Shown here piece by piece: positions 19,927 to 38,514 of a stretch of DNA of 64,000 nucleotides; the first letter of the stretch is position 1; every line of letters starts with the position of its first letter. The notes below the pieces were generated by a model. That model was not told the DNA's origin and did no database searches. It worked only from the letters and a program-made list of their open reading frames with translations. Origin of the DNA: a phage. The stretch lies in the sequence record PZ386973.1. One strand, 5' to 3'. Both the position numbers and the translations under genes were made by a program.

Positions 19927-20097
19927 ATGAAATCAGTTGTAATTATTGGTGTTAACACTCGCGGTATTCGTACTACGAAAACTGTTAAAACTTCTAACAT
20001 TGCTGAAATCACTACGAACCCTAAAAAGTTTGATTTCGCCAAAGTCTCAGCAGTTATGACAGAACAATCTTTTAACCAAGCATTGGGGATGAAATAA
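19927..20097 (+). CDS. hypothetical small protein
   Basis: ATG after GAGGAAG; about 56 codons; below the track length threshold. Confidence 0.35.
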   Translation: MKSVVIIGVNTRGIRTTKTVKTSNIAEITTNPKKFDFAKVSAVMTEQSFNQALGMK

Positions 20098-20531
20098 TGG
20101 GTACGAACATGATTCGTGTACTACGAGAGTTGATTGAAGATGCTCGTAAACGTGGAGATACTGTATCGGTTAAGCACCTAAGTACGATTCTAGGTGACTT
20201 GCAACGTATTAACAAGGATTGCATAACTAAGCTGGAATTTACTAACTGGCTGAAATCCCAGTTCAAGGCAATTGAGAATACACAGACTGCTGCTGAAAAA
20301 GCAAATGTCGAATATATTCCTGATGATGAATATCTAGATCTTTTAGCAGGTTTAGAGTATGAATACGCTTTGCAACAGCTGACTGAAACCGAAATTCGTA
20401 AATACTTTGCAGAACTAGTTAAATTAAACCCAGGTATTACCAAAGCCCTACTAATGAAAACTATTAAGGCAGAGTTCCCAGGGCGTTATGATGGTAAAAC
20501 AACTGCTTTGATTGCTAGTGAATTTTTCTAA
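20097..20531 (+). CDS. hypothetical protein
   Basis: Track ORF. Confidence 0.5.
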   Translation: MGTNMIRVLRELIEDARKRGDTVSVKHLSTILGDLQRINKDCITKLEFTNWLKSQFKAIENTQTAAEKANVEYIPDDEYLDLLAGLEYEYALQQLTETEIRKYFAELVKLNPGITKALLMKTIKAEFPGRYDGKTTALIASEFF

Positions 20532-20568: not shown

Positions 20569-20801
20569 ATATTCATAAATTAGAGAACAGCGAGCCGATT
20601 ACGCTGAGTGCAGAATCCCAACCGGAGCGCATTGAATAGAGTCGGTGGGTTAGTTGTAAAACTAGTACACAGGGGGCGGCAATCCCGGTTAGTGGCTAGA
20701 ACGTGTAAAATGGGGCGTCTGAAACCTCTCCCTTAAACTCTTCTCTAATCTATAAATAGTGGGGTGTGGAAATCACTTATGTAGTAACACTGCCGTCCTA
20801 A

Positions 20802-20888
20802 GTTAATTGGTAGACTTCTGCACGCGGAGATTATATCTCCAGATGCGGAAAGTGCAGGTTCGAATCCTGCGGTCGGTAAGAACTGGAT
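20802..20888 (+). tRNA. tRNA-like element (isotype unresolved)
   Basis: GGTTCGAATCC T-loop; acceptor GCCGTCC/GGTCGGT has one mismatch; anticodon arm not resolved. Confidence 0.35.
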
Positions 20889-21380
20889 AACTGGTGCTTT
20901 TAACGTAAAAGCTTCCGAGGTTAGTTGCGCACTGCCTAAACCACGCGGTAGTTGGTTCCAGGCTAACCAACCCGTCTGCTGAATAGTTTTATTACGATTT
21001 AGCTATGTCCAGGCTAAAGAAGAACTTTAGAAGGTATTCTAGGATAGTGAAGTTCTTTCTCCATATCGGAGTAGTTTTTCAGGCTATCCACAAAGTGGGA
21101 AATGCTGACATGAGAGATGTCACTAATGGTGCACAATAGCACAGGTAATTCGCGATAACTCCTGTTGAGTAGCAGCAAAAGGCGGGAAGTCATGACCCCA
21201 AGCCTAACCGAGTCCTCAATATACCGCAGGACATAACCACTAAGTCACCCTGACTTAAACTGGAAAATAATAGACGTTACTGTATTTTGTCTTGAAATAC
21301 TTAATGAGTGAGACTTATGACTCTCCCGGTATCGTCTGTATTTTTAAGAATTTTTACGAGAGTTCTTAAAAATACTTAAA

Positions 21381-25087: not shown

Positions 25088-25162
25088 GGTTCTCAAGCTC
25101 ATATGGTATGAGCACCCGGCTCATAACCGGAAGGTACGTAGGTTCGAATCCTCGGGGAGCCA
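25088..25162 (+). tRNA. tRNA with CAT anticodon (Met or Ile2)
   Basis: Acceptor GGTTCTC/GGGAGCC with G-U pairs, D-stem GCTC/GAGC, loop CTCATAA; T-stem pairing weak. Confidence 0.55.
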
Positions 25163-27628: not shown

Positions 27629-27733
27629 CCAAATTCTGTGTAGAGTTAAGTAAACCGGTAGCCAACCAGCTATCATTGCTGACATCGAATTCAGCCACAG
27701 ATACCATTTTCATTAATAACTGAGGAAACAAGC

Positions 27734-28182: not shown

Positions 28183-28255
28183 ACATCCATAGCTCAATGG
28201 TTAGAGCTACCGCCTCTTAAGCGGAGGGTTCTAGGTTCAAGTCCTAGTGGGTGTA
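28183..28255 (+). tRNA. tRNA-Lys (anticodon CTT)
   Basis: Acceptor ACATCCA/TGGGTGT, D-stem GCTC/GAGC, loop CTCTTAA. Confidence 0.65.
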
Positions 28256-28284
28256 CCAAATTAAACTAGCACGAGAAATATGCT

Positions 28285-28632
28285 ATGATTAATGCTAAAG
28301 AAGAGTTGTTACTTGCCCTAAAGAATACTAAGTCTGAAGTTAAGTGTATTAAGATAGAATTCGGTTATTATGGGGATAAAGAAGTTTGGGTATTACCCGT
28401 AGGTTATACAGAAAAAGATATTGAAGATTTTCTAGATAATCTAGACTTTAAATATGATTCTGGTTTCGGCGGACAACTGCTTTATGGTAACGTATGGTTT
28501 ACTGATGGAACTTGGTTAGAACGTGGTGAATATGATGGTTCTGAATGGTGGGAATATAAGACTACACCAGCAATCCCAGAAGAATGCCGAACAATTAATG
28601 GTGAAGTAGATCGTACTTTACTATTAAATTAA
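28285..28632 (+). CDS. hypothetical protein
   Basis: Track ORF. Confidence 0.45.
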   Translation: MINAKEELLLALKNTKSEVKCIKIEFGYYGDKEVWVLPVGYTEKDIEDFLDNLDFKYDSGFGGQLLYGNVWFTDGTWLERGEYDGSEWWEYKTTPAIPEECRTINGEVDRTLLLN

Positions 28633-28640
28633 CAAAATTT

Positions 28641-28741
28641 CAGTGCAGAACACGGAGCTAGCAATTCGGAAGTGCTGACTCATGATAAGCTGCCTATGTA
28701 CTTGCGAAGCGGTCGTGTCCAAGACTCGGACTCTTGCACTG
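28641..28741 (+). ncRNA. candidate structured RNA closed by a long-range stem
   Basis: 5' CAGTGCA (28641-28647) pairs with 3' TGCACTG (28735-28741); no ORF. Confidence 0.3.
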
Positions 28742-28754
28742 AAAACAATCAAAC

Positions 28755-28875
28755 ATTCTAGCGTGGTTGATGGGGAAACCAGCTTGGCTAGGGCAGAAGC
28801 TCGTTCGATTCGAGTGGAAGAATGGTTCTCGTAAGTCCGCACAAGTGATAACAGGTTCGAGTCCTGTCTAGAATG
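28755..28875 (+). tRNA. tRNA-like element with two tandem T-arm hairpins
   Basis: ATTCTAG...CTAGAAT outer pairing; GCTCG-TTCGATT-CGAGT and ACAGG-TTCGAGT-CCTGT; too long for a canonical tRNA. Confidence 0.3.
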
Positions 28876-28884
28876 ACACTATAA

Positions 28885-29010
28885 AGTTTACTTATTGAGT
28901 AGGTTCCGATAGATCGGCGGGTCTATTCTGGCATTTAAGAGAGGTCTCGCAAACTTCTTTGTCAGCCGTGGGGTTCATAGCCTCCAGGTGGCCTACACAA
29001 TAAGTAAATT
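28885..29010 (+). ncRNA. candidate structured RNA closed by a 12-13 bp long-range stem
   Basis: AGTTTACTTATTG (28885-28897) pairs with CAATAAGTAAATT (28998-29010). Confidence 0.3.
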
Positions 29011-29024
29011 TATTAAAAATTCAT

Positions 29025-29053
29025 TTGCTATTCTGCTTAATTATCTGTATAAT
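29025..29053 (+). promoter_or_regulatory. early promoter module
   Basis: AAAAATTCATTTGCTA...TATAAT. Confidence 0.55.
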
Positions 29054-29085
29054 ATATTTTATAAAGTGAAGAGAAGGAAAGCAAA

Positions 29086-29244
29086 ATGAAACACAAGATA
29101 GCTCAAGTTTTTATGGCATTATGGTGTATGCCAATAGCTATAACAGCATTTAATCTAGATACTCTTACTATAGAAGAAAAATGTATCGGATTAGTTAGCG
29201 GCTTTAGTATGCTGGGCTTATCTTTGCTGTGGTTAAAGAAATAA
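29086..29244 (+). CDS. small hydrophobic membrane protein
   Basis: ATG after AGGAAAG; 52 codons with two hydrophobic segments; the overlapping minus-strand track ORF was rejected. Confidence 0.45.
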   Translation: MKHKIAQVFMALWCMPIAITAFNLDTLTIEEKCIGLVSGFSMLGLSLLWLKK

Positions 29245-29248
29245 TATT

Positions 29249-29323
29249 CTCCGTGTAGCTCAGTTTGGCCAGAGCGTTTCGTTTGGGGCGATAGGGTCGG
29301 GGGTTCAAATCCTCCCACGGAGA
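29249..29323 (+). tRNA. tRNA-Pro (anticodon TGG)
   Basis: Acceptor CTCCGTG/CACGGAG, D-arm GCTC...GAGC, loop TTTGGGG. Confidence 0.65.
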
Positions 29324-29333
29324 CCAAACAATT

Positions 29334-29725: not shown

Positions 29726-29963
29726 ATTTATATAAATTGATGAGGATTTCTCCTCATCATAGTTCACTAAGGTATTAGCTCGACCTAGGACTGGCTGCCA
29801 AAAAGCACGATCCCTACGATTCGGGAGAAGTTCTAGATTAGTCCACTAGATTCAGCGGCAACTGAATAGTGTATCGGGTTTGCGAGATGACGTAGTTCCT
29901 TCCGCTCGAAGCGAAGGTGCTGTAGTTACGCCGAGCTAATAGCCTTAGTAAATTAAAGAATTT

Positions 29964-30236: not shown

Positions 30237-30324
30237 GGAAGAGCAAATCGAATTGGCGACGAAAACCGCTTGGAAAGTGGCTGACTGGTAAAACGGCTTG
30301 AGAGTTCAAATCTCTTCTCTTCCG
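30237..30324 (+). tRNA. tRNA-Ser (anticodon GGA)
   Basis: Acceptor GGAAGAG/CTCTTCC, loop TTGGAAA, long variable arm. Confidence 0.6.
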
Positions 30325-30339
30325 CCAAACAATTTATAT

Positions 30340-30431
30340 GGTAGGTCAATCCAAAGGCTGGCGCTGGACTCCGACTTGAAATCGGTTGATCGTAGTGATA
30401 CGGTGTAAGGGTTCGATCCCCTTACCTACCT
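30340..30431 (+). tRNA. tRNA-Ser (anticodon TGA)
   Basis: Acceptor GGTAGGT/ACCTACC, anticodon stem CCGA/TCGG, loop CTTGAAA, long variable arm. Confidence 0.65.
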
Positions 30432-30439
30432 CCAAATCT

Positions 30440-30570
30440 TGGAATATGCCGGAATTAGTAGACGGGACTGCCGAATAGGTTTACTAGGAACATCCACTCC
30501 TAGAAATATACCTTAAAGGCGGTTGAGATAAATGGTCTATCTCGTGAAGGTTCAAGTCCTTCTATTCCTT
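30440..30570 (+). tRNA. tRNA-like element (Leu-type D-arm, over-length)
   Basis: GCCGGAATTAGTAGACGGG resembles a Leu D-arm; T-arm GAAGG-TTCAAGT-CCTTC; 131 nt, no clean cloverleaf. Confidence 0.3.
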
Positions 30571-30684
30571 GATACATCAATGGCTCAAAGTGTAACGGTG
30601 CTATTTGATGCTCTTGGAAAGACTTTCCCGACAGGCGTTCGGGGGTAAGCTTCTGAGGCTAGAATAGAAGAGTTTCTGAGAGCC

Positions 30685-30804
30685 GCCACAATTGAAAATT
30701 CGTACTCGTCTTGAGCTGCGTGCAATAGGAGATAACTTGATTAGTATTCTAGAACATGCTAATTGAGGATGGTTTCGCTAACCCTGCGAGTTTTCAATTG
30801 TGGC
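30685..30804 (+). ncRNA. candidate structured RNA closed by a perfect 14-bp long-range stem
   Basis: GCCACAATTGAAAA (30685-30698) is the exact reverse complement of TTTTCAATTGTGGC (30791-30804). Confidence 0.35.
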
Positions 30805-30873
30805 TATATCATAATTGGTTAATGATCCTGATTGTGAATCAGGCCTATGTGGATTCGAATTCCACTAGCCACC
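30800..30873 (+). tRNA. tRNA-His (anticodon GTG)
   Basis: Acceptor GTGGCTA/TAGCCAC, anticodon stem CCTGA/TCAGG, loop TTGTGAA, C73. Confidence 0.7.
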
Positions 30874-30901
30874 CCAAATTAACTTAAATAGGAAATAAAA
30901 T

Positions 30902-31099
30902 ATGGCTGATTTCTGCAAACAATGCTCTATTGATATGTGGGGCAGAGATACTGGTGATCTTTCTGGTTTGATTACAGAAGCCGAAGTTAAAGAAGGTTAT
31001 GGTGCAGTTGTGATTTGCGAAGGATGCGGAGTTATTCGAGTGGATCATGAAGGCAAACGTTTAGAAGAGCAGGAAAATTTAGGAGAAACAAATGAGTAA
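30902..31099 (+). CDS. small Cys-rich protein
   Basis: CKQC...CEGCG. Confidence 0.45.
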   Translation: MADFCKQCSIDMWGRDTGDLSGLITEAEVKEGYGAVVICEGCGVIRVDHEGKRLEEQENLGETNE

Positions 31100-31328
31100 T
31101 GCCTTAATTAGTGAAATTATGTTAACACGTCTTGCAGAATTACAAACTCTTCGAGATGAATCTCAGAATAACTTAGCCTACCATAAACAGATGGTAGATA
31201 CTCTTACTACTCGTATTGAAACTTACGAGCGCGATATTGCAGCATTACAAGCCCTTTTCTCTGTGTCAGCACCCGATACGTTAGAACAGCCTCCTGTGTC
31301 TCAGCCGGTAGAAACAGCATCTAGTTAA
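31092..31328 (+). CDS. hypothetical protein
   Basis: Track ORF. Confidence 0.45.
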   Translation: MSNALISEIMLTRLAELQTLRDESQNNLAYHKQMVDTLTTRIETYERDIAALQALFSVSAPDTLEQPPVSQPVETASS

Positions 31329-31337
31329 TAGCATTCT

Positions 31338-31410
31338 TGGAGTGTAGATCAATTGGCAGATCGTCGGCCTCTGACTCCGAAGGTTCCTGGTTCGATCCCA
31401 GGCACTCCAG
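31338..31410 (+). tRNA. tRNA-Gln (anticodon CTG, tentative)
   Basis: Acceptor TGGAGTG/CACTCCA, T-arm CCTGG-TTCGATC-CCAGG, loop CTCTGAC. Confidence 0.6.
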
Positions 31411-31419
31411 CCAAACAAT

Positions 31420-31492
31420 TGGAGAGTAGTGTAACGGTTAGCACAACGGCCTTTGACTCCGTTAATGGTAGGTTCGATTCCTCCTTCTCCAG
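31420..31492 (+). tRNA. tRNA-Gln (anticodon TTG)
   Basis: Acceptor TGGAGAG/TTCTCCA, D-stem GTGT/GCAC, loop CTTTGAC. Confidence 0.6.
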
Positions 31493-31503
31493 CCAAATAA
31501 TAG

Positions 31504-31576
31504 GCGGTTAAGCACACGGGTTGTGTCGCAGGCCTTCCAAGCCTCGCTGAGTAGGGTTCGATTCCCTCTAGCCGCT
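31504..31576 (+). tRNA. tRNA-Gly (anticodon TCC)
   Basis: Acceptor GCGGTTA/TAGCCGC, loop CTTCCAA. Confidence 0.6.
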
Positions 31577-31595
31577 CCAACTTTAAGGAAACGTT

Positions 31596-31847
31596 ATGCA
31601 CGTTTTTGAGTTTCGTAATAAAAGTACCGATAAACGAGTTATTGTTATTGGAGAAACATACCGAGCATACGAACAAACTGACGGCTCTGTTATCCTGAAT
31701 GATGAGAAAGGAGGTTTTAGCTTTTATCCAGAAGAACCTTATGAAGAGTTTCGAAAACAATTTAACCTAGACTGGAGAAAGCATTTAAACACTGTTGCTT
31801 CATCTGTAGTATTGCCAACTACCAGTACTGTACCCCCTAATGGCTGA
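31596..31847 (+). CDS. hypothetical protein
   Basis: Track ORF; the minus-strand track ORF 31281-31760 across the tRNAs was rejected. Confidence 0.45.
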   Translation: MHVFEFRNKSTDKRVIVIGETYRAYEQTDGSVILNDEKGGFSFYPEEPYEEFRKQFNLDWRKHLNTVASSVVLPTTSTVPPNG

Positions 31848-32004
31848 CAACCTAAAAGTAAAGATCGATAAACAAAAGAAACGTGTAGAAGTAGAGATTG
31901 GTGAAGAACGTGTAGCCTTCACCTTTGAATTTCTTCAGCAGTTGGCAATGACAGTTATGACTGATAAGTCTCCTGTTATTGAAAAAGAAATCCCGTTGAA
32001 ATAA
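31840..32004 (+). CDS. hypothetical small protein
   Basis: ATG 31840 overlapping the upstream stop; 54 codons. Confidence 0.4.
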   Translation: MADNLKVKIDKQKKRVEVEIGEERVAFTFEFLQQLAMTVMTDKSPVIEKEIPLK

Positions 32005-32012
32005 CGGGTTTT

Positions 32013-32084
32013 GCTCCTAAAGCATTGCTGGCGATGCAGTTGCCTTGTAAGCATCTGAACCGGGTTCGATTCCTGGTGGGAGCA
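32013..32084 (+). tRNA. tRNA-Thr (anticodon TGT)
   Basis: Acceptor GCTCCTA/TGGGAGC, D-stem GCAT/ATGC, loop CTTGTAA. Confidence 0.65.
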
Positions 32085-32102
32085 CCAAATTTAAAAATTC
32101 AT

Positions 32103-32131
32103 TTGCCTTCTCTCTTATTTATTGTTATAAT
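32103..32131 (+). promoter_or_regulatory. early promoter module
   Basis: TTGCCT-N17-TATAAT. Confidence 0.55.
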
Positions 32132-32161
32132 ATTTATATAAATTAATGAGAGGGAAACCAA

Positions 32162-32455
32162 ATGAAACGTTATCTTTCTGTATTATTCCAAGCTGGTGGT
32201 CAACGCTATACTTACGAATTTCCTAGCTCTTGGAAAATAAAAGAAGGTGATCAAGTAGTAGTGTTAACACCACGTGAAGGGTATAAAGTAGTAACGGTTA
32301 AACAAGTATTTCCAAAAGATCATGAACCGGCTAAAGGCATTCGCTATAAGATGATTCATGGTGTGGTTCGTCAAGTACCACGAGCGGAAGTAGAAATCAG
32401 AGTAGATAAAGATGGTAAACTTAAGTATACTTCTTGCTTAGATGAGTTACTATAA
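32162..32455 (+). CDS. hypothetical protein
   Basis: Track ORF. Confidence 0.45.
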   Translation: MKRYLSVLFQAGGQRYTYEFPSSWKIKEGDQVVVLTPREGYKVVTVKQVFPKDHEPAKGIRYKMIHGVVRQVPRAEVEIRVDKDGKLKYTSCLDELL

Positions 32456-32661
32456 TGAGGATTACTTTCACAGAAAAGATCATGAGTAATGGTGTTATGA
32501 TCATTACCGCATGGGATGGTAATCAGTGGTGTAGTGTTTCAGGTATTAAGCCCGAAGAACAAACACTAGAAAATATCTCAAAGATTAAGCGAAGAATGGC
32601 AGAACGTGCACGACTTCCAGGTGCGCCTAGAAATGGTAAACGTTCTGCAATTAAATGTTAA
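32455..32661 (+). CDS. hypothetical protein
   Basis: Track ORF, ATGA overlap. Confidence 0.4.
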   Translation: MRITFTEKIMSNGVMIITAWDGNQWCSVSGIKPEEQTLENISKIKRRMAERARLPGAPRNGKRSAIKC

Positions 32662-32662
32662 T

Positions 32663-32736
32663 GCTTCGGTAGCTTAGCGATCTAAAGCACTCGGCTGATA
32701 ACCGAGAGATCGGGGGTTTAAATCCCTCCCGGAGTA
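32663..32736 (+). tRNA. tRNA-Ile (anticodon GAT)
   Basis: Acceptor GCTTCGG/CCGGAGT, anticodon stem CTCGG/CCGAG, loop CTGATAA; unusual T-loop TTTAAAT. Confidence 0.6.
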
Positions 32737-32835
32737 CCAAATTTAGGAATTAAGACTATGCGTCCAGGAAAGTTTAAAAAAGCTAATTGGTCTAAAGAGT
32801 ATAAAGAATACTTACTTAGTCTAATAAAACATAAT

Positions 32836-32908
32836 AGTTAGTTGGCAGAGTGGTTATGCACCTCCTTCATACGGAGCGACTACAGTGGTTCAAATCCACT
32901 ACTAACTA
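32836..32908 (+). tRNA. tRNA with CAT anticodon (Met or Ile2)
   Basis: Acceptor AGTTAGT/ACTAACT, loop TTCATAC. Confidence 0.6.
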
Positions 32909-32934
32909 CCAAATTCTAACATCGGGGAGATCTA

Positions 32935-33303
32935 ATGAAAGCATATCAAAATCTTAAATCTGGCGTAATTAACCTTGTTCATGAAAATCAGATTATTCAG
33001 CTATACTCCGACAACGGTGAACTTAAACAGAAAGTTCTAGTTGAAGATCTAGAAGGTATCACCCCACAATTCGATCCTGAAGCCTTCCGTGAAGTCAAAG
33101 TGGAAGTCGCCCCTCAAATCGAAGGTGGTCAGCACCTAAATGTCAATGTGTTAAGCCGTGATCAGCTTTTGGATGCGCAGAAACATCCTGAAAAATATCC
33201 TCAGTTGACCATCCGTGTCTCTGGCTACGCTGTTCGATTTAACGCACTGACTCGTGAACAACAGAACGACGTTATTAGTCGTACATTTACTCAGGCGATG
33301 TAA
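32935..33303 (+). CDS. grcA: autonomous glycyl-radical cofactor (GrcA/YfiD-like)
   Basis: C-terminal [27 protein letters not shown] matches the glycyl-radical signature RVSGYAV. Confidence 0.7.
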
Positions 33304-33384
33304 TGGGGTTTGGATACGATTTCTCCGAGCTACATGAGGTAGTCGAGCAAACTCCATTTATCTCCCAAGTTTTAGGAGAAATGT

Positions 33385-33690
33385 GTGGATCGAGCATTAA
33401 GACGCCATCACCGGCAACGTGTGAAGAACAACCGTAAGAAGTATTGGACAGTCTTTCCACATGAAGAAAGCCCTAAGCGGTTAGGTATTATCACTACTAC
33501 TCCTTGCATCTGTTCTTGTTGGATGTGTGGGAACCCTCGCAAATATTATAAGAATAGTAAAGCAGGTATGAAAACCTCGGAGATCAGGAAAATGGAAGCG
33601 ATGATTGCGGACATCACCTATACTGGTGGTATTTCAAATGATGAATTTGATGGCTTCGTAGCGTTCGAAGATGAACGCCCCGATCTGTAA
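33385..33690 (+). CDS. hypothetical basic, Cys-containing protein
   Basis: Track ORF. Confidence 0.45.
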   Translation: MDRALRRHHRQRVKNNRKKYWTVFPHEESPKRLGIITTTPCICSCWMCGNPRKYYKNSKAGMKTSEIRKMEAMIADITYTGGISNDEFDGFVAFEDERPDL

Positions 33691-33699
33691 TTAATAACA

Positions 33700-33736
33700 A
33701 ACCCCAGCTATTGAATAAGTAGTCTGGGGTTTTTCT
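33700..33736 (+). terminator. rho-independent terminator
   Basis: CCCCAG...CTGGGG stem followed by TTTTT. Confidence 0.6.
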
Positions 33737-33811
33737 GTATAAAGGTACATAATATATGTATAATAAAATTCATCCACATTAGGTTAATTTAAAAGACTTA
33801 ATGGAGGTAAT

Positions 33812-34159
33812 ATGAGCCGTACTTATCGTAAACAATCTGGTGATCAGTGGTGGAAGTCTAAAGAACAATTCTCTCAAGAATATTCTTTCCTCAAAGAAAA
33901 TGGCTACTGGATTCGTGTTATTTATGCCAAATCCTGGGACGACATCAAAAAAGAAATGAAGGAAGCAACCATTCGTAATGAGAAAAAGGATGGTTATAAC
34001 TGGAATTCTATTAGTAAGAATGTTAAGTGGCATTCTAATAAAATGGTTCGTCAAGGGAATCGTCAAGAACTCCACCGCGTGATGAAAGATCCAGAAAATT
34101 ATGATTATAATCGCGATCATGACATGCGTAAACGTGGGTTATGGTGGTGCTATGACTAA
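33812..34159 (+). CDS. hypothetical protein
   Basis: Track ORF after GGAGG. Confidence 0.45.
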   Translation: MSRTYRKQSGDQWWKSKEQFSQEYSFLKENGYWIRVIYAKSWDDIKKEMKEATIRNEKKDGYNWNSISKNVKWHSNKMVRQGNRQELHRVMKDPENYDYNRDHDMRKRGLWWCYD

Positions 34160-34176
34160 ATTCTGAAATAATTCAT

Positions 34177-34205
34177 TTGCTAAACCTCTCTTTTCTTGTT
34201 ATAAT
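34177..34205 (+). promoter_or_regulatory. early promoter module
   Basis: TTGCTA-N17-TATAAT. Confidence 0.55.
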
Positions 34206-34235
34206 ATGTTTATAAATTGATGAGAGAGGTTTGAA

Positions 34236-34517
34236 ATGAAAACTCGTCTAGACTGTGCTGTTCATGTTCTTGAACATGATGTTGCGGGAACCTGTATGTC
34301 TTACCACGAAGCAGGTCGTTTAATTAAAGAACGTGTGGCAGATGTGTGCGGATTGAAGATTACTGCTGAGGAAGCTGATGATCTTTTAGGTCAAGCACTG
34401 GAGAAAACCGAAATGTTTCTCTGTGATTCTTGTTCTTGGTGGTGTGAAGCCCACGAACGTTCTTTCAACGATTATGATGTATGTCGTGATTGTAGTGGGG
34501 AGGATGAAGATGAATAA
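34236..34517 (+). CDS. Cys-rich hypothetical protein
   Basis: Track ORF; CDSCSWWC...CRDC. Confidence 0.45.
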   Translation: MKTRLDCAVHVLEHDVAGTCMSYHEAGRLIKERVADVCGLKITAEEADDLLGQALEKTEMFLCDSCSWWCEAHERSFNDYDVCRDCSGEDEDE

Positions 34518-34809
34518 GTTTATTATTGCACTGATGATCTCCGCAGTTAGTTTCGGTTCTCTGGCGTCTACCAAAGTTTCTATGAAAAATGGTAATGTTA
34601 AAGTCCAACAGAACGGCATTATTACCGAGTATGGTAAAGTTCGTGATGTTAAGGAACGTAATGGTAAAGTAGAAATATATACTAATAAAAACTTCTCTAC
34701 TCCAGCCGTTACTATTAGCAAACGCGGTGAAATAACCACTCAACGTACTAATAGCTCCAGTTCTTTTACTTGTCGTTATGATTGCGACTTTGAAGGTGAA
34801 GATGAATAA
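34510..34809 (+). CDS. secreted small protein
   Basis: ATG 34510; signal-peptide-like MNKFIIALMISAVSFGSLAS. Confidence 0.45.
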   Translation: MNKFIIALMISAVSFGSLASTKVSMKNGNVKVQQNGIITEYGKVRDVKERNGKVEIYTNKNFSTPAVTISKRGEITTQRTNSSSSFTCRYDCDFEGEDE

Positions 34810-35221
34810 TTTAGACCCTAGAATTAAATTTGCAATTACAGAAATCCAAGATCAAATTGATGAGGACTTCACCGTTTGGTCAAGGTCTGGTAATGGAGAA
34901 TATTGCCAGCTTTATAGCCTGAAAATGGGTATCTCAATTGAGCTTAATATCAACTCTGAAGGTAGAGTAGAGGCCCAACCCATGTTCAGTGTTCCAGGCT
35001 TCTCTGGATTTGTTGCAGGTATAAAATTGTGTCTACCAAATAACCATCTTCATCGAGTTATTTGTCAGTTAGAGACTATTAAGCATTTCTTGCCAGAAGG
35101 TAATATTAATGACTACTACCATGAAGTTGTAGCAGCTCATATGATGAAAGAAAGTAAACGTCGGAGAGAAGAACGTGAAAAGACTAAACATCAACAGCAC
35201 AGTGCAGATTCCAGCAACTAA
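34802..35221 (+). CDS. hypothetical protein
   Basis: In-frame ATG 34802. Confidence 0.45.
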   Translation: MNNLDPRIKFAITEIQDQIDEDFTVWSRSGNGEYCQLYSLKMGISIELNINSEGRVEAQPMFSVPGFSGFVAGIKLCLPNNHLHRVICQLETIKHFLPEGNINDYYHEVVAAHMMKESKRRREEREKTKHQQHSADSSN

Positions 35222-35471
35222 GGATGTTCTAACATTCCTACGTAGTGAGAATACCCAGTTTTGGCATGACTATATTCAGGAAAATAAAAATAATCCAGAT
35301 GTAGTTGCTTTTGCCAAAAAACGTATTGGTGAATATAAAGATCCAGAGATTAAAGATGGGATGATTACCATGCAATTATGGATAGCTATGAAAACCTTTG
35401 GACCCACTATGAGTCTAGGATTTACTCCACTGTTTACTAATATTCTAGTTAATGAAAAGGATCTGAAATGA
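35175..35471 (+). CDS. hypothetical protein
   Basis: Track ORF. Confidence 0.4.
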   Translation: MKRLNINSTVQIPATKDVLTFLRSENTQFWHDYIQENKNNPDVVAFAKKRIGEYKDPEIKDGMITMQLWIAMKTFGPTMSLGFTPLFTNILVNEKDLK

Positions 35472-35752
35472 TTATCTCTCCATTTGCTCTTTGGTTCGTC
35501 ATTGGATCTGTGGTTGCTATTTACAGCTTGATTGATGATCTGTATATTTCTAAGAATAAAGATGTAATATTATACGTTATACATAAAACTCGACCGTTAG
35601 ATCTGCCACCTCTTGATGATAAAACATTACTCAGATGTGCTAGATCTATGATATTTATTGTGGATATTCTTCTAGGCCCAACATCTGTGTTTTTCTTTTA
35701 TAGAAAAACTCGTAATATGAAAAAATTTAAAGCTGAAATGCAGAATACCTAA
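35468..35752 (+). CDS. hypothetical membrane protein
   Basis: Track ORF with hydrophobic N-terminus. Confidence 0.45.
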   Translation: MIISPFALWFVIGSVVAIYSLIDDLYISKNKDVILYVIHKTRPLDLPPLDDKTLLRCARSMIFIVDILLGPTSVFFFYRKTRNMKKFKAEMQNT

Positions 35753-35862
35753 AGAACTCGCGTAGGACCGAGTTGCGTCACCTGCAACTGTTACGGATAA
35801 GGGAGTCGTGCCCCTTAGTGCGGTAAGTGGTGAGGTGGCTGCTAGCCCTAACTGGAGATAAT

Positions 35863-36207
35863 ATGACTATATTACTAATTCTTGTTACAACTTGGTTTTT
35901 AATTGGTGCTGGATATGCGATAGCTATTATTAGACATTTGGACGAATACTCTGCTGAATGGTTTGTTAAGTATCTACGTATTGATGATCAAGAGCAGAAG
36001 TTTAAAGATGAAAAGCAGAAAAAAGCAGTAAATAATATGACAGCCAAAGAATGCTTGTTCTACATGCGTATTGTAGGGTTCTTTGGACTATTAGTTGCTG
36101 GCCCAATTGGTTCTACCATTGCCCCATATAAAGAAACAGTTGCTGACATCAAATTGTGGAGAAATGCAGGGGTACTACGCAAAGCTAGAGAAACTAATAT
36201 TACATAA
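35863..36207 (+). CDS. hypothetical membrane protein
   Basis: ATG 35863 after GGAGA; two predicted TM helices. Confidence 0.45.
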   Translation: MTILLILVTTWFLIGAGYAIAIIRHLDEYSAEWFVKYLRIDDQEQKFKDEKQKKAVNNMTAKECLFYMRIVGFFGLLVAGPIGSTIAPYKETVADIKLWRNAGVLRKARETNIT

Positions 36208-36250
36208 GATTGATGCTAAATCAACTTACTAGCAAAAGCAAATAATGACA

Positions 36251-36288
36251 AAGCCCAGCCTGCACTTTTGCGACTGGGCTATTTTTAT
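36251..36288 (+). terminator. rho-independent terminator
   Basis: AGCCCAG...CTGGGCT stem followed by ATTTTT. Confidence 0.55.
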
Positions 36289-36301
36289 AATAAAATTTTA
36301 G

Positions 36302-36330
36302 TTGCTTAGATGCCCAAACTTTTGTATAAT
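36302..36330 (+). promoter_or_regulatory. early promoter module
   Basis: TTGCTT-N17-TATAAT. Confidence 0.55.
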
Positions 36331-36361
36331 ATGTTTATAGATTGAGGCAAGAGGATTAAAT

Positions 36362-37060
36362 ATGAGGATTATTTCTAAGTTCGCCGATGTGTATGATTTG
36401 CAGAACAGTTTGTTCGACCCAGATCGTGTGTGGGAACGTAAAACTGAGGAGTTGCTGGTTAAAGTAACCGATGACGCAGAAAAGAACATTGTGCATACTC
36501 GCCAGGTATTTCGTGATGGTTCGCTATCTTTCCGTGGTGATTTCGAATATTTTGTAAACCCACTATTTGTTGCAGGTGAGGTTTACTGGTTACACGAGCT
36601 GTACTGCTGGCATCCAGCATTTAGCTTCAAAACGTTTAATCTCGACACTATGTTTGATAAAATGGAAGAGATGGGATTACATGCTCGCTCTTACTTAATG
36701 GATAAGAGTCGCGGAGATGTTCGTGAAACAATGCGTGATTTGCTCGCTGAAGCAAAACCTAAAGCAGAACGTATCTTATCCGAACTGCGTGTACCGATTG
36801 CATATGTGAAAGGTATTAAAAAGAACGATAACGATGATGTTCGTAACTTCGTAATTCAGACTAACATTCGTTTCCATCAGTCCGGTATTCCGTGGCAGGA
36901 AATTGAAAGTAACTTATACCGTTTACACCAAGTTCTCGAACAGTATATCTTCGGTGTACTAGGAACTGGTGAGCCTGATATGATTAAAGTATCAGATAAA
37001 GACAGGTTAGCAGCGCATGGATTTGATACAAAAACTTCTTTCAGGAATATGGCACGGTAA
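36362..37060 (+). CDS. hypothetical protein
   Basis: Track ORF. Confidence 0.5.
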   Translation: MRIISKFADVYDLQNSLFDPDRVWERKTEELLVKVTDDAEKNIVHTRQVFRDGSLSFRGDFEYFVNPLFVAGEVYWLHELYCWHPAFSFKTFNLDTMFDKMEEMGLHARSYLMDKSRGDVRETMRDLLAEAKPKAERILSELRVPIAYVKGIKKNDNDDVRNFVIQTNIRFHQSGIPWQEIESNLYRLHQVLEQYIFGVLGTGEPDMIKVSDKDRLAAHGFDTKTSFRNMAR

Positions 37061-37466
37061 GTGGTATATCCTGGGAGCAGGTCTAGCGATAGGCATCGGA
37101 TTCGGTGCTTATCACTTAGTAGATAAAGTGGAGACTTTAGCCGGAGATCTTGCGGTAGCTACTAAAAAGATCTCTTCTCTAGAAACTTCCCTTAATAAGG
37201 TGAAAGCTGAGAGCGAACTTCGTGAGACTAGAATGAATCAGTATTTCACAATGAATAATATTTCGCAAGCAGATCTAGACAAAAAGATTAAGCAGTTAGA
37301 TAAAGCGCTTAGTCGCCAAGATATTATAGCTGCAAAGCCTGGATTGGTAACATTAATTGCTAAAAAGCAGAGTAAAGAGTTCGAGGAAAGATTAGCGTGT
37401 TTAACTGGAAACTTGGAATACTGCTCGCAGCCGCAATCACAATCACAGGCTGTGCAGAAGAAATAA
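37017..37466 (+). CDS. hypothetical membrane-anchored coiled-coil protein
   Basis: Track ORF; start uncertain. Confidence 0.4.
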   Translation: MDLIQKLLSGIWHGKWYILGAGLAIGIGFGAYHLVDKVETLAGDLAVATKKISSLETSLNKVKAESELRETRMNQYFTMNNISQADLDKKIKQLDKALSRQDIIAAKPGLVTLIAKKQSKEFEERLACLTGNLEYCSQPQSQSQAVQKK

Positions 37467-37750
37467 AACCAGAGCCATCTCATGAGTTAAAGCAAGCTCA
37501 TGTAGACTGGCCTAAAGGACTTCAACCTTGTAGCTTTAACTTTAGGTTTGAAAAGAAATTAGCTACAAATGGAGAAGATGGCGTAGTAGTTGTTATACCA
37601 TACAAAGATTGGAATGCAAAAGCAAAATGTGAGGAAGCAGTTTACTCTTACATTTCACGACTGACTGGTATGGTCTGCTTCTATCGTCAAGATTTACAAG
37701 AAAAACGTTGCTTAGTTTACTATCCACCCATTACAAATAGGAAAGATTAA
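37397..37750 (+). CDS. putative lipoprotein
   Basis: Lipobox-like LAAAITITGC near the N-terminus. Confidence 0.45.
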   Translation: MFNWKLGILLAAAITITGCAEEIKPEPSHELKQAHVDWPKGLQPCSFNFRFEKKLATNGEDGVVVVIPYKDWNAKAKCEEAVYSYISRLTGMVCFYRQDLQEKRCLVYYPPITNRKD

Positions 37751-38502
37751 TGTCAGTATTAGTCGGTTTACATGGTGAAGCTGGTTCGGGAAAAGATACC
37801 GTTGCAAAATTAATTATCGATTGGTGTAGTGACACGTATCCAACGTGTTTATCCCGTCGTTACAGTTTTGCTAAGCCCGTTTATGAACTTGCATCCGTAA
37901 TCCTCGGTGTAACTCCAGAGTTTCTAGGAGAGCGCAGGGGAAAAGAGATTGATCAATGGTTTACGGTCACACAATCTCAATTGGAGCGAGCCAGAGATGT
38001 GTGGTTTAAGTACGGTATCGATAAGTTTGAAGACTTCTCGTACGTTTGGCCTATTTTTGAGGAAAAATATCTTAATCCTCAACAACTTATCTCAGAGAGT
38101 AAAGAAGACGGACTTTATAGTTTATTTATTTCTCCGAGAAAAATGTTACAGCTCGTAGGAACAGAGCTAGGAAGGCAGCTGGTGCATGAACGCATTTGGC
38201 TCATAATTCTGGAGCAATCCATCGCTAAAGACGACCCAGACGTCGCCATAATAACAGATGTTAGATTCCCCAATGAAGGAGAGCTACTCAGAGAAACAAA
38301 CCATTTAGATATGGATTCTTTGATAGTAAATGTAGTACCCGCTGAGCAGAAGTTCACTATTAAATCAGATCATCCATCTGAAAGTGGTATTCCTGCAAAA
38401 TATATTACTCACGAATTAGTTAATAAATTCGATGGTATCAATAACCTTAAACTAGAAGTTTATAACTTCTGTGACTTAGAGCTAGAACCACTAGTTGGAT
38501 AA
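37750..38502 (+). CDS. deoxynucleoside monophosphate kinase-like P-loop kinase
   Basis: N-terminal GLHGEAGSGKDT P-loop; about 250 aa. Confidence 0.6.
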   Translation: MSVLVGLHGEAGSGKDTVAKLIIDWCSDTYPTCLSRRYSFAKPVYELASVILGVTPEFLGERRGKEIDQWFTVTQSQLERARDVWFKYGIDKFEDFSYVWPIFEEKYLNPQQLISESKEDGLYSLFISPRKMLQLVGTELGRQLVHERIWLIILEQSIAKDDPDVAIITDVRFPNEGELLRETNHLDMDSLIVNVVPAEQKFTIKSDHPSESGIPAKYITHELVNKFDGINNLKLEVYNFCDLELEPLVG

Positions 38503-38514
38503 TCAAGGATCGCT

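What the first reader, a model, noticed from the sequence alone, without database searches (positions are those of the whole stretch)
28641..29010. Two stem-closed RNA domains and a tandem T-arm element between tRNA genes
28641-28741 is closed by CAGTGCA and TGCACTG. 28755-28875 has an ATTCTAG/CTAGAAT outer pairing and two T-arm-like hairpins but is too long for a canonical tRNA. 28885-29010 is closed by a 12-13 bp stem. None is coding. They may be pseudo-tRNAs or novel small RNAs.
Basis: seen in the sequence. Interest (0 to 1): 0.55.

Follow-up and report, generated by a model that had tools for sequence, protein, structure and literature searches.

The report
Known T5 stable RNAs: RNA2, RNAIV
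The 370-base gap between tRNA genes of this T5-like phage holds two structured RNAs already annotated in phages T5 and BF23 (tRNA-like "RNA2" and "RNA IV", function still unknown) plus one unannotated element that is as conserved as a tRNA gene.

Summary
The window is the tRNA-gene region of a Tequintavirus (T5-like phage). The three stem-closed modules are really there.

**Module 2 (28754-28878)** is the ortholog (95% identical) of the GenBank feature rna2, "tRNA-like stable RNA with unknown functions", of T5 and BF23.

**Module 3 (mature 28897-28999)** is the ortholog of rnaIV, "stable RNA with unknown functions". So the core of the finding is already known, and neither is an ordinary tRNA.

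What I add:
- **RNA2:** it has a full tRNA frame (acceptor, D stem, anticodon-type stem, T arm) proven by covariation. About 55 nt replace the anticodon loop. This insert holds a second T-arm-like hairpin and an invariant CUCGUAA-N-UCCGCA. The family spans several Demerecviridae genera and uncultured phages, and is absent from Rfam.
- **RNAIV:** it is an oversized cloverleaf. Its roughly 20-bp closing helix lies partly outside the mature RNA, which suggests an RNase III-type processing stem. Its central hairpin carries a similar CUCGCAA loop.
- **Module 1 (28638-28744):** it is unannotated, closed by a perfect 10-bp stem, and 99.4% conserved next to an ORF that is only 91% conserved. Its structure is unproven.

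The region is dispensable in the laboratory. Function is unknown; the tRNA-mimic or decoy idea is inference only.

The parts
28183..28258 (+). tRNA-Lys(CTT), the upstream flanking tRNA gene
   Evidence: ARAGORN; Rfam RF00005 at 64.8 bits.
28285..28632 (+). ORF, 115 aa, ortholog of T5.067 (PHROG 3972, unknown function). It separates tRNA-Lys from module 1.
   Evidence: The ORF is absent in Epseptimaviruses that still carry module 1, so module 1 does not depend on it.
28638..28744 (+). Module 1 ('el1'): an unannotated element closed by a perfect 10-bp stem (28638-28647 with 28735-28744). Its loops contain the palindromes GCTAGC and TCATGA, and it has a small hairpin GTCC-AAGACTC-GGAC.
   Evidence: - **Repeat:** inverted repeat I3.
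- **Conservation:** 99.4% mean identity against 90.8% for the neighbouring ORF; 220 phage records match, 155 of them at >= 99%.
- **Annotation:** not annotated in T5 or BF23.
- **Structure:** no covariation is available. Substitutions avoid predicted pairs only marginally (p = 0.05) and do so equally on either strand.
28754..28878 (+). RNA2: a 125-nt tRNA-like stable RNA, ortholog of T5/BF23 rna2.
   Evidence: 95.2% identical to T5 rna2 over 125/125 nt. Covariance model R1 scores 145 bits. Structure is supported by covariation.
28755..28761 (+). RNA2 acceptor stem, 5' strand. It pairs with 28868-28874. C28754 can also pair with G28875, giving 8 bp.
   Evidence: All 7 pairs change on both sides across the family. 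Inverted repeat I6.
28764..28781 (+). RNA2 D arm: stem TGGTT/AACCA with loop GATGGGGA, which contains the GG.
   Evidence: 4 of 5 pairs covary.
28782..28846 (+). RNA2 anticodon-type stem (28782-28786 with 28842-28846) enclosing a 55-nt insert (28787-28841) in place of a 7-nt anticodon loop.
   Evidence: 5 of 5 stem pairs covary: CUUG/CAAG, CCAU/GUGG, CCUG/CAGG, CCUC/GAGG, CUCCA/UGGAG.
28799..28815 (+). Inner T-arm-like hairpin of the insert: GCTCG-TTCGATT-CGAGT.
   Evidence: The stem covaries (CUCG/CGAG, UACGG/CCGUA, CUGG/CCAG, AUGGG/CCCAU) while the loop stays GGUUCGAUUCC-like.
28828..28841 (+). Invariant CTCGTAA-G-TCCGCA block of the insert. CTCGTAA at 28828-28834 is an anticodon-loop-like heptamer.
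   Evidence: Invariant columns in alignment A3; position confirmed. Caveat: the metagenomic members were retrieved with a pattern that requires this block. The My1, KPN4 and Slocum copies were found by blastn alone and also carry it.
28851..28867 (+). RNA2 T arm: ACAGG-TTCGAGT-CCTGT.
   Evidence: 3 of 5 pairs covary and the loop is a canonical TTCRANY.
28884..29011 (+). RNAIV precursor module: a long closing helix. It has 12 bp (28886-28897 with 28998-29009), one A/A mismatch, then 9 bp (28899-28907 with 28987-28996).
   Evidence: z = -5.49; inverted repeat I1. There are compensatory changes in the My1 and L040 homologs, e.g. U-A to C-G, C-G to U-A, G-C to A-U.
28897..28999 (+). Mature RNAIV (103 nt) as annotated in T5/BF23. 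It has three hairpins:
- H1: 28908-28927, loop GGCG.
- H2: 28938-28960, loop CTCGCAA at 28946-28952, sitting on stem 28929-28932 with 28965-28968.
- H3: 28969-28986, T-arm-like, GGGG-TTCATAG-CCTC.
   Evidence: Mapping. 97% of cells are paired across 23 variants, with many wobble-preserving changes. The H1 and H2 stems covary in distant homologs while their loops are kept.
29025..29053 (+). Promoter P13a (TTGCTA-17-TATAAT), which starts the next transcription unit (small ORF, tRNA-Pro, tRNA-fMet).
   Evidence: Best promoter match in the scan, 10/12. Annotated as promoter P13a in T5 and BF23.
29249..29326 (+). tRNA-Pro(TGG), the downstream flanking tRNA gene.

Best explanation
The interval 28638-29011 is the distal, non-coding end of one transcription unit of a T5-type tRNA operon, on the + strand. 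It is packed almost base for base with three stem-closed RNA modules.

**Identity (shown).** Two modules are the long-known T5/BF23 stable RNAs: RNA2 (125 nt, tRNA-like) and RNA IV (103 nt). The first (el1) is an unannotated element conserved at the level of a tRNA gene.

**Structure (shown).**
- RNA2 keeps a complete tRNA frame: acceptor, D arm, anticodon-type stem and T arm.
- Its anticodon loop is replaced by a conserved insert of about 55 nt. The insert has a second T-loop hairpin and an exposed CUCGUAA-N-UCCGCA.
- RNAIV is an oversized cloverleaf whose central hairpin shows a similar 7-nt loop, CUCGCAA.

**Processing (inferred).**
- The modules are co-transcribed with the tRNAs from an upstream promoter.
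- Host tRNA-processing nucleases cut them out: RNase P at the 5' end of RNA2's acceptor stem, and a double-strand-specific (RNase III-type) cut in RNAIV's roughly 20-bp closing helix.
- That cut would leave the annotated ends, which lie opposite each other in the helix.
- The compact tRNA-like folds then make the products stable. The tRNA frame of RNA2 acts as a natural 'tRNA scaffold' for its insert.

**Function (inferred, weakest step).** The RNAs act in trans as tRNA mimics. They would present anticodon-loop-like CUCGYAA loops and T-loop elbows to a tRNA-binding host or phage factor, for example as a decoy or sponge for a tRNA-targeting enzyme. This role is accessory and is not needed on laboratory hosts.
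For: **Identity**
- The GenBank features rna2 and rnaIV of T5 and BF23 map exactly onto 28754-28878 and 28897-28999.
- The window is 98.6% identical to Tequintaviruses here.

**Not a tRNA or a known family**
- No ARAGORN call and no Rfam hit.

**RNA2 structure**
- 96.8% of cells are paired, 23 of 31 pairs change on both sides, 0 of 500 shuffles reach this, and slid controls give 31-44%.
- Members occur in Tequintavirus, Epseptimavirus, Myunavirus My1, Sugarlandvirus KPN4, Serratia phage Slocum and uncultured phages.
- In distant members the insert stays 80-84% identical while the frame diverges.
- None was found among 95 bacterial-genome pattern hits or in E. coli genomes.

**RNAIV structure**
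- z = -5.49.
- Homologs in My1 and L040 score 43 and 38 bits and carry compensatory changes in the outer helix, H1 and H2. The loops GGCG and CUCGCA(A/C) are conserved.

**Operon context**
- RNA2-like genes sit 3-6 nt after a tRNA in KPN4 and L084.
- Promoter P13a follows RNAIV directly.

**Processing stem**
- The annotated mature ends (28897 and 28999) lie one pair apart inside the long helix.

**el1**
- 99.4% identity, against 90.8% for the adjacent ORF.
- Present without that ORF in TrudiGerster and SB9.

**Dispensability**
- T5Mos lacks 30661-38625, which covers all three elements, and is viable (PMC11464382).
- The del-1 tRNA region is a deletion hotspot (PMC12483538).
Against: - **No expression or processing data were examined here.** 'Stable RNA' rests on the depositors' annotation. 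The RNase P and RNase III steps are inferred from shape alone, and the annotated 3' overhang would be 1 nt rather than RNase III's 2 nt.
- **The trans-acting mimic or decoy function has no direct support.** No partner was identified. A test of linkage with a YqeY/GatB-like protein was negative in 3 of 4 other lineages.
- **The shared CUCGYAA motif could be coincidence.** The heptamer occurs 22 times in the window against 12.7 expected. Its invariance in the metagenomic RNA2 members is partly forced by the search pattern.
- **The RNAIV covariation comes from an alignment fitted to the model, and from only two distant sequences.**
- **For el1 nothing shows that it works as RNA.** The fold z-score is -0.19. 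There is no covariation. The substitution pattern is only marginal and is the same on both strands.
Confidence: 0.55

Rival explanations
1. The modules work only in cis. They would be punctuation, stability or termination elements of the polycistronic tRNA/mRNA precursor. They could give nucleases defined entry points, protect the 3' end of the transcription unit that ends before promoter P13a, or insulate it from the next unit. The excised pieces would be by-products.
For: - The three modules fill the whole gap between the last ORF and the next promoter, with 7-10 nt spacers.
- RNAIV with its long helix is the last element before P13a.
- RNA2-like genes directly abut tRNAs or ORF stops in other phages.
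- Loss of the region has no phenotype in the laboratory.
Against: - A cis spacer would not need an invariant 14-nt single-stranded block, two conserved T-loops and conserved GGCG and CUCGCAA loops across genera while its stems drift.
- RNA2-like genes keep the insert in phages with a quite different gene context (L099).
- The depositors describe the products as stable RNAs.
Confidence: 0.2
2. They are decaying tRNA pseudogenes or duplication remnants with no function, carried along in a recombination-prone region.
For: - The region is dispensable and a deletion hotspot.
- RNA2 has tRNA parts, and part of its sequence looks like a partial duplication: AGAAT at 28819-28823 can pair with the 5' acceptor strand (inverted repeat I5).
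- tRNA finders reject it.
Against: - 23 of 31 RNA2 pairs are maintained by double changes over several genera.
- The insert is nearly invariant.
- RNAIV helices are compensated in My1 and L040.
- el1 is 99.4% conserved beside a 91% conserved ORF.

All of this indicates purifying selection, not decay.
Confidence: 0.05
3. Module 1 (el1) is not an RNA gene but a DNA-level site. It could be a protein-binding, recombination or homing-target sequence whose inverted repeat and internal palindromes are read as double-stranded DNA. Its uniformity could then come from gene conversion rather than from selection on an RNA.
For: - Near-identity in 155 of 220 records, with no thermodynamic signal (z = -0.19 on the + strand, -0.85 on the - strand).
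- It contains the 6-bp palindromes GCTAGC and TCATGA. In TrudiGerster TCATGA becomes CGCGCG, another palindrome.
- The substitution pattern fits both strands equally.
- T5-type tRNA regions carry HNH homing endonucleases.
Against: - No endonuclease gene is adjacent in the window.
- The element lies on the transcribed strand between processed RNAs. It is framed just as RNAIV is, by a terminal stem, with tRNA-style spacing to its neighbours.
- Real tRNA genes here show the same level of conservation.
Confidence: 0.15
4. RNA2 is a chargeable tRNA relative. It would be aminoacylated after CCA addition and used as a non-decoding aminoacyl donor, as a tmRNA-like rescue RNA, or as a tRNA whose insert is spliced out.
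For: - It has a complete acceptor/T-arm minihelix and a D loop with GG.
- The KPN4 copy encodes a discriminator plus CCA.
- CUCGUAA followed by CCGCA resembles a stretch of E. coli tmRNA pseudoknot 1. This comes from my memory of that sequence and was not tested.
Against: - ARAGORN finds no tmRNA or tRNA, and Rfam gives no tmRNA or tRNA hit at E <= 10.
- The acceptor stem and discriminator vary freely (A1-U72, U1-A72, G1-C72; discriminator G, U or A). CCA is not encoded in the T5-type copies. No identity set is therefore conserved.
- The position that would be U33 is an invariant C, and the would-be anticodon differs (UAG, GAG, UUG) between members. This rules out a canonical intron.
- The pseudoknot pairings needed for a tmRNA-like fold are absent in KPN4 (read).
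Confidence: 0.05

Closest known systems
T5 / BF23 'RNA2' (misc_RNA rna2; AY543070 32959-33083, AJ604530 5701-5825)
   Same: It is the same gene. Identity is 95-97%, the length is the same (125 nt), and the neighbours are the same (T5.067 ORF upstream, RNAIV and promoter P13a downstream).
   Different: Nothing essential. The window copy has a few substitutions, including G28817, which is an A in the other copies aligned. BF23 and many Epseptimaviruses carry a tRNA-Gly(GCC) plus about 147 nt between RNA2 and RNAIV that the window lacks.
T5 / BF23 'RNA IV' (misc_RNA rnaIV; AY543070 32838-32940)
   Same: It is the same gene: 96% identity, same position before promoter P13a, same 103-nt mature span.
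   Different: The third hairpin varies between relatives. Epseptimaviruses replace it with a different small hairpin.
Phage T4 species 1 and species 2 RNAs (rnaC, rnaD)
   Same: They are small stable RNAs of unknown function encoded inside a phage tRNA gene cluster and co-processed with tRNAs. rnaC ends in a T arm plus acceptor-like stem.
   Different: They are not homologous. The RNA2 model gives only 17 bits on rnaC, below the T4 tRNAs themselves. There is no CUCGUAA-UCCGCA block.
Engineered 'tRNA scaffold' RNAs, in which a foreign RNA is inserted in the anticodon stem of a tRNA for stable expression in E. coli (from my own knowledge of that method)
   Same: The architecture is the same: an intact acceptor, D and T frame, with a foreign structured insert replacing the anticodon loop. 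The frame recruits tRNA processing and gives stability.
   Different: This one is natural, and its insert is the conserved part. That the frame plays this scaffold role here is inferred, not tested.
Bacterial tRNA-like Y RNAs (YrlA) and the tmRNA tRNA-like domain
   Same: They are non-decoding RNAs that mimic part of a tRNA (T arm, D-loop elbow) in order to engage tRNA-binding proteins.
   Different: There is no Rfam hit to any Y RNA or tmRNA family. In RNA2 the 5' and 3' ends form the acceptor stem, which is not the case in YrlA. There is no tag reading frame and no alanine identity pair.

Membership tests
T5/BF23 stable RNA 'RNA2' | Sequence orthology with the annotated rna2 feature over its full length | tested here: met
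   125/125 nt aligned at 95.2% to T5 rna2. Model R1 gives 143-148 bits for T5, BF23 and the window.
T5/BF23 stable RNA 'RNA2' | Same genomic neighbourhood (after the T5.067 ORF, before RNAIV and promoter P13a) | tested here: met
T5/BF23 stable RNA 'RNA2' | Accumulates as a discrete stable RNA in infected cells | not testable with these tools
   Known only from the depositors' annotation, 'stable RNA'.
T5/BF23 stable RNA 'RNA IV' | Sequence orthology and position relative to promoter P13a | tested here: met
   96% identity to T5 rnaIV. Model R2 gives 153-155 bits. The promoter lies at 29025-29053.
Canonical tRNA | Recognised by tRNA detectors (ARAGORN; Rfam RF00005 at its gathering score) | tested here: not met
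   There is no call in 28641-29010, and no RF00005 match at E <= 10.
Canonical tRNA | Acceptor stem, D arm and T arm with a T-loop consensus | tested here: met
   For RNA2, all three helices covary and the loop is TTCGAGT. RNAIV and el1 do not have canonical dimensions.
Canonical tRNA | 7-nt anticodon loop with U33 closing a 5-bp anticodon stem | tested here: not met
   The 5-bp stem encloses 55 nt (28787-28841). The second loop position is an invariant C.
Canonical tRNA | 3' CCA, encoded as in the other tRNAs of this phage | tested here: not met
   RNA2 ends in ...CTAGAAT-G-ACA. The neighbouring tRNAs encode CCA. Only the KPN4-type copy encodes CCA. Addition after transcription is not testable here.
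tRNA with an intron | Conserved exon-derived anticodon loop (U33, fixed anticodon) once the insert is removed | tested here: not met
   The would-be position 33 is C, and the would-be anticodon varies (UAG, GAG, UUG) among members. There is no group I intron hit in Rfam.
tmRNA | Detected by ARAGORN or Rfam tmRNA models; tag reading frame; G3-U70 alanine identity pair | tested here: not met
   The third acceptor pair is U-A in the window and varies among members.
RNase III processing stem (as in rRNA, T7 and T4 precursors) | Roughly two turns (about 20 bp) of double-stranded RNA bracketing the mature ends | tested here: met
   For RNAIV: 12 bp, a 1x1 mismatch, then 9 bp. The annotated ends 28897 and 28999 lie opposite each other inside it. 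The helix is kept by compensatory changes in My1 and L040.
RNase III processing stem (as in rRNA, T7 and T4 precursors) | Cleavage depends on RNase III and leaves a 2-nt 3' overhang | not testable with these tools
   The annotated ends imply a 1-nt overhang. There are no enzymatic data.
Any Rfam 15 family | Covariance-model match | tested here: not met
   The only match touching the interval at E <= 10 is a chance-level sRNA162 hit at 28965-29110, with E = 7.1.

The most novel reading that the evidence does not exclude
RNA2-type RNAs would be a phage-specific class of 'tRNA-scaffolded' effector RNAs that nobody has curated. The conserved insert (a second T-loop elbow plus the CUCGUAA-N-UCCGCA strand) and the CUCGCAA loop of RNAIV would bind and neutralise a tRNA-directed host factor, such as a defence nuclease or a modification enzyme. 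Module 1 would be a third, so far overlooked, structured RNA of the same operon, conserved at the level of a tRNA gene.
Probability: 0.15. Interest if true: 0.7.

Novelty: already known. Interest (0 to 1): 0.3.

Why it matters
T5's tRNA region has recently proved to be an arsenal against tRNA-targeting immunity; for example, the T5 tRNA-Lys neutralises PARIS (PMC11464382).

The non-tRNA stable RNAs in the same operons have had no assigned function since they were annotated. No Rfam model matches RNA2 or RNAIV, and I found no open paper on them.

This work shows three things:
- RNA2 is a covariation-supported family that reaches beyond T5.
- Its conserved part is the insert, not the tRNA frame.
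- RNAIV shares a similar exposed loop.

Together these give concrete mutational targets and two covariance models (R1, R2) for finding more members.

For genome annotation, these intervals in hundreds of T5-like records are left blank or given spurious 'hypothetical proteins'. They should be annotated as ncRNA.

Tried and rejected
rejected.
- **tmRNA-like pseudoknot.** The idea was CGAG pairing with CUCG and GUGGA pairing with UCCGC, prompted by a remembered similarity to E. coli tmRNA PK1. Neither pairing is conserved: KPN4 has neither, the window lacks the first, and T5 weakens the second (read). Rejected.
- **Spliced tRNA intron:** rejected, because there is no U33 and the would-be anticodon varies.
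- **Homology with T4 rnaC or rnaD:** rejected.
- **Host origin:** no match in 5,426 E. coli genomes. No RNA2 member was found among 95 bacterial-genome pattern hits.
- **Linkage of RNA2 with a YqeY/GatB-like tRNA-binding protein.**
  - The protein is adjacent in L099/L096 and is present in the window at 20097-20531 (PHROG 1460).
  - Three other phage lineages with this protein have no RNA2-like RNA within 6 kb.
  - The link is not supported as a rule.
- **el1 as a companion of the T5.067 ORF:** rejected. Distant ORF homologs have nothing similar downstream, and some Epseptimaviruses have el1 without the ORF.
- **el1 structure from the substitution pattern.**
  - The RNAalifold-based test gave p = 0.0017, but it is circular.
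  - The independent single-sequence test gives p = 0.05, with the same value for the opposite strand.
  - Inconclusive.
- **The loose metagenome and genome pattern scans** returned mostly chance hits and had to be filtered with model R1.
- **Literature searches** found no open paper on RNA2 or RNAIV.
Full report
**What the window is.** The 1.1 kb around the finding is 98.6% identical to Escherichia phage Baret and Salmonella phage PMBT29, and it matches 433 T5-like phage records. ARAGORN finds 22 tRNA genes, all on the + strand, between 21381 and 32911. Rfam adds two more. The finding therefore lies in the tRNA-gene region of a Tequintavirus, between tRNA-Lys(CTT) at 28183-28258 and tRNA-Pro at 29249-29326. 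A 115-aa ORF at 28285-28632 sits upstream, and a strong sigma-70 promoter (TTGCTA-17-TATAAT, 29025-29053) sits downstream.

**Checking the observation.** All three descriptions are correct.

Module 1 is closed by a perfect 10-bp inverted repeat, not just 7 bp: 28638-28647 with 28735-28744.

Module 2 has the ATTCTAG/CTAGAAT pairing (28755-28761 with 28868-28874). It also has two T-arm-like hairpins, at 28799-28815 and 28851-28867.

Module 3 has a 12-bp stem that continues, after one mismatch, into nine more pairs.

Thermodynamics singles out only module 3, with z = -5.49. Modules 1 and 2 fold no better than shuffles, at z = -0.19 and -0.13.

No tRNA finder or Rfam model matches anything in 28641-29010, even at E <= 10.

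**Two of the three are already annotated.** The GenBank records of T5 (AY543070) and BF23 (AJ604530) carry misc_RNA features from the laboratory that sequenced these tRNA regions. They are rna2, "tRNA-like stable RNA with unknown functions" (125 nt), and rnaIV, "stable RNA with unknown functions" (103 nt), followed by promoter P13a. By alignment and BLAST these map to window 28754-28878 (95.2% identity) and 28897-28999 (96%).

The same records annotate further stable RNAs that are also present in the window: RNA3, RNA2H, RNA1, RNAI, RNAIII and RNAX. The 121 bp between the T5.067 ORF and rna2, which is module 1, is left unannotated in both records.

**RNA2 in detail.** Blastn at low stringency found copies well outside Tequintavirus. 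They occur in Pectobacterium phage My1, Klebsiella phage KPN4 and Serratia phage Slocum. Pattern scans filtered with a covariance model added Epseptimaviruses and four uncultured lineages: L084, L096/L127, L099 and L160.

On the 23 distinct sequences, 96.8% of cells form standard pairs and 23 of 31 pairs show changes on both sides. Versions of the structure slid by 1-3 columns pair at only 31-44%.

The supported helices are:
- a 7-bp acceptor stem;
- a 5-bp D stem;
- a 5-bp anticodon-type stem;
- a 5-bp T stem;
- a 5-bp inner hairpin.

The acceptor and anticodon-type stems are completely different in sequence between genera. The insert that replaces the anticodon loop, by contrast, is nearly invariant. 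It reads GGG ... GG-UUCGAUU-CC ... (A)UGG ... CUCGUAA-N-UCCGCA. The most distant member, L160, matches Demerecviridae only across this insert, at 80-84%.

Two alternative pairings for UCC(G) are possible in every member. One is with the invariant GGG, which RNAalifold predicts and in which one pair covaries C-G to U-A. The other is with the nearby UGG. I could not decide between them.

The acceptor stem, the discriminator base and the presence of CCA all vary. A conserved aminoacylation identity is therefore unlikely. The second loop position is C rather than U33, and the would-be anticodon varies, so a spliced tRNA is excluded.

RNA2-like genes lie 3-6 nt after a tRNA in KPN4 and L084. In L099 the gene lies directly after an ORF stop and is followed by C5U7. 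No member turned up in bacterial genomes.

The picture is a tRNA frame that carries a conserved functional insert. It is a natural counterpart of the engineered 'tRNA scaffold'.

**RNAIV in detail.** Among 23 close variants the four-way-junction fold stays 97% paired. Many changes preserve pairing through wobble (A-U/G-U/G-C at one pair, U-G/C-G at another). One pair at the inner end (junction side) of the 12-bp outer stem changes on both sides, G-C to A-U.

A model built on this set found distant homologs in My1 (43 bits) and in a related contig, L040 (38 bits). In those homologs the outer helix, hairpin 1 and hairpin 2 are rebuilt with different base pairs. The loops GGCG and CUCGCA(A/C) and the T-arm-like third hairpin are retained. 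This alignment was fitted to the model, so it leans towards the structure. Even so, the number of double changes is large.

Epseptimaviruses replace hairpin 3 with another small hairpin.

The annotated mature ends lie inside the long helix, one pair apart: the 5' end at G28897 and the 3' end at A28999. The outer 12 bp are therefore precursor-only sequence. This is the geometry of an RNase III-type processing stalk, although the implied overhang is 1 nt rather than 2. The mature RNA is an oversized cloverleaf.

Its central 7-nt loop, CUCGCAA, differs by one base from the CUCGUAA of RNA2. Both read like anticodon loops (C32 U33 ... A37 A38). This link is suggestive only, because the heptamer is not rare in the window: 22 occurrences against 12.7 expected.

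**Module 1 (el1).** Its mean identity to 19 related genomes is 99.4%. The comparison values are 90.8% for the ORF just upstream, 97.4% for RNA2, 96.1% for RNAIV and 99.6-99.7% for true tRNA genes. Of 220 GenBank records with a match, 155 are at least 99% identical.

It does not belong to the ORF. Distant homologs of the ORF have nothing similar downstream. The Epseptimaviruses TrudiGerster and SB9 carry el1 without the ORF. In those phages it follows yet another tRNA-like sequence of about 95 nt that ends in CCA.

There is too little variation for covariation analysis. Substitutions avoid predicted pairs at p = 0.0017 when the RNAalifold structure is used, but that test is circular. With the independent single-sequence fold the value is p = 0.05, and it is identical for the opposite strand.

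In TrudiGerster the loop palindrome TCATGA is replaced by CGCGCG. That would fit either a kissing loop or a DNA-level site.

I rate el1 as a real, selected element, probably a third processed RNA. This is not shown.

**Function.** Two papers show that the region is dispensable on laboratory hosts. T5Mos lacks 30661-38625, which covers rna2, rnaIV and el1 if that paper uses the same coordinate system as AY543070, and it is viable (PMC11464382). The 'del-1' tRNA region is a deletion hotspot (PMC12483538).

The same literature shows that T5 tRNAs counter tRNA-targeting immunity. That makes a tRNA-mimic or decoy role for the tRNA-like RNAs an attractive hypothesis, but it remains untested.

I tested one possible partner. 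A YqeY/GatB-like protein (PHROG 1460) lies 470 nt upstream of the RNA2-like gene in L099/L096, and one is also encoded in the window at 20097-20531. Three other phage lineages with this protein show no RNA2-like RNA within 6 kb. The association is not general.

**Verdict.** The main objects, however, are the already annotated T5 RNAs RNA2 and RNA IV, so the finding is not novel.

What remains of value is threefold:
- the covariation-backed structural models and family range of RNA2 and RNAIV;
- the shared CUCGYAA loop;
- the unannotated, tRNA-grade-conserved module 1.

Noticed in passing
window 31504-31579: This stretch is 100% identical to T5 tRNA-Gly1(UCC), which the T5 record notes can be converted into an effective amber suppressor. 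Neither ARAGORN nor Rfam (gathering threshold) called it in the window.
   Followed up: partly
window 30237-30327 and about 30344-30435: These are two tRNA-Ser-like sequences of about 90 nt, with anticodon loops TTGGAAA and CTTGAAA and ends ...CTTCCGCCA and ...CCTACCTCCA. They lie where T5 has tRNA-Ser2(GGA) and tRNA-Ser1(UGA). ARAGORN and Rfam missed both, and only the 3' part of Ser1 is similar to T5. The HNH endonuclease gene that T5 has here (hegC) is absent.
   Followed up: partly
window 20792-20878 and 25088-25162: Rfam tRNA hits (42 and 40 bits) that ARAGORN did not call. The second is T5 tRNA-Ile2(CAU). The first lies inside the ortholog of the 719-nt 'RNAX stable RNA' of T5 (about 20730-21380), so RNAX contains a tRNA-like domain.
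   Followed up: partly
window 27634-27706, 29773-29944, 30438-30581, 30582-30688, 30693-30798: These are orthologs of the other T5 stable RNAs of unknown function: RNA3, RNA2H, RNA1 (tRNA-like, 144 nt, with a T arm GAAGG-TTCAAGT-CCTTC), RNAI and RNAIII. None matches the RNA2 or RNAIV models.
   Followed up: partly
window 20097-20531 (+): A 144-aa protein (T5.081 ortholog) belongs to PHROG 1460, 'tRNA amidotransferase' (E = 1e-37). This is the same family as a Pfam YqeY-domain protein next to the RNA2-like gene of L099. Pfam itself does not detect the window protein. It is probably a GatB/YqeY-type tRNA-binding protein at the head of the tRNA region.
   Followed up: partly
L283 about 613-705 and L284 about 613-705 (Epseptimavirus TrudiGerster, SB9): Between tRNA-Lys and el1 these phages carry an unannotated tRNA-like sequence of about 95 nt (GGGGTCT...AGACTCC-A-CCA). 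It has an acceptor stem, a D arm and an encoded CCA, but no canonical T arm.
   Followed up: no
L001 2752-2972 (BF23), and many Epseptimaviruses: A tRNA-Gly(GCC) plus an uncharacterised spacer of about 147 nt is inserted between RNA2 and RNAIV. The window and T5 lack it, so RNA2 and RNAIV are separable modules.
   Followed up: no
window 29738-29759: A perfect 9-bp hairpin, TGATGAGGA-TTTC-TCCTCATCA, lies a few bases downstream of a TATAAT promoter box (T5 promoter P13b) and just upstream of the RNA2H ortholog.
   Followed up: no
L099 11863-12000: In this uncultured freshwater-sediment phage the RNA2-like gene starts inside the stop codon of the preceding ORF. It is followed by CCCCC-TTTTTTT and has no tRNA nearby. 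The family therefore also exists outside large tRNA arrays.
   Followed up: partly
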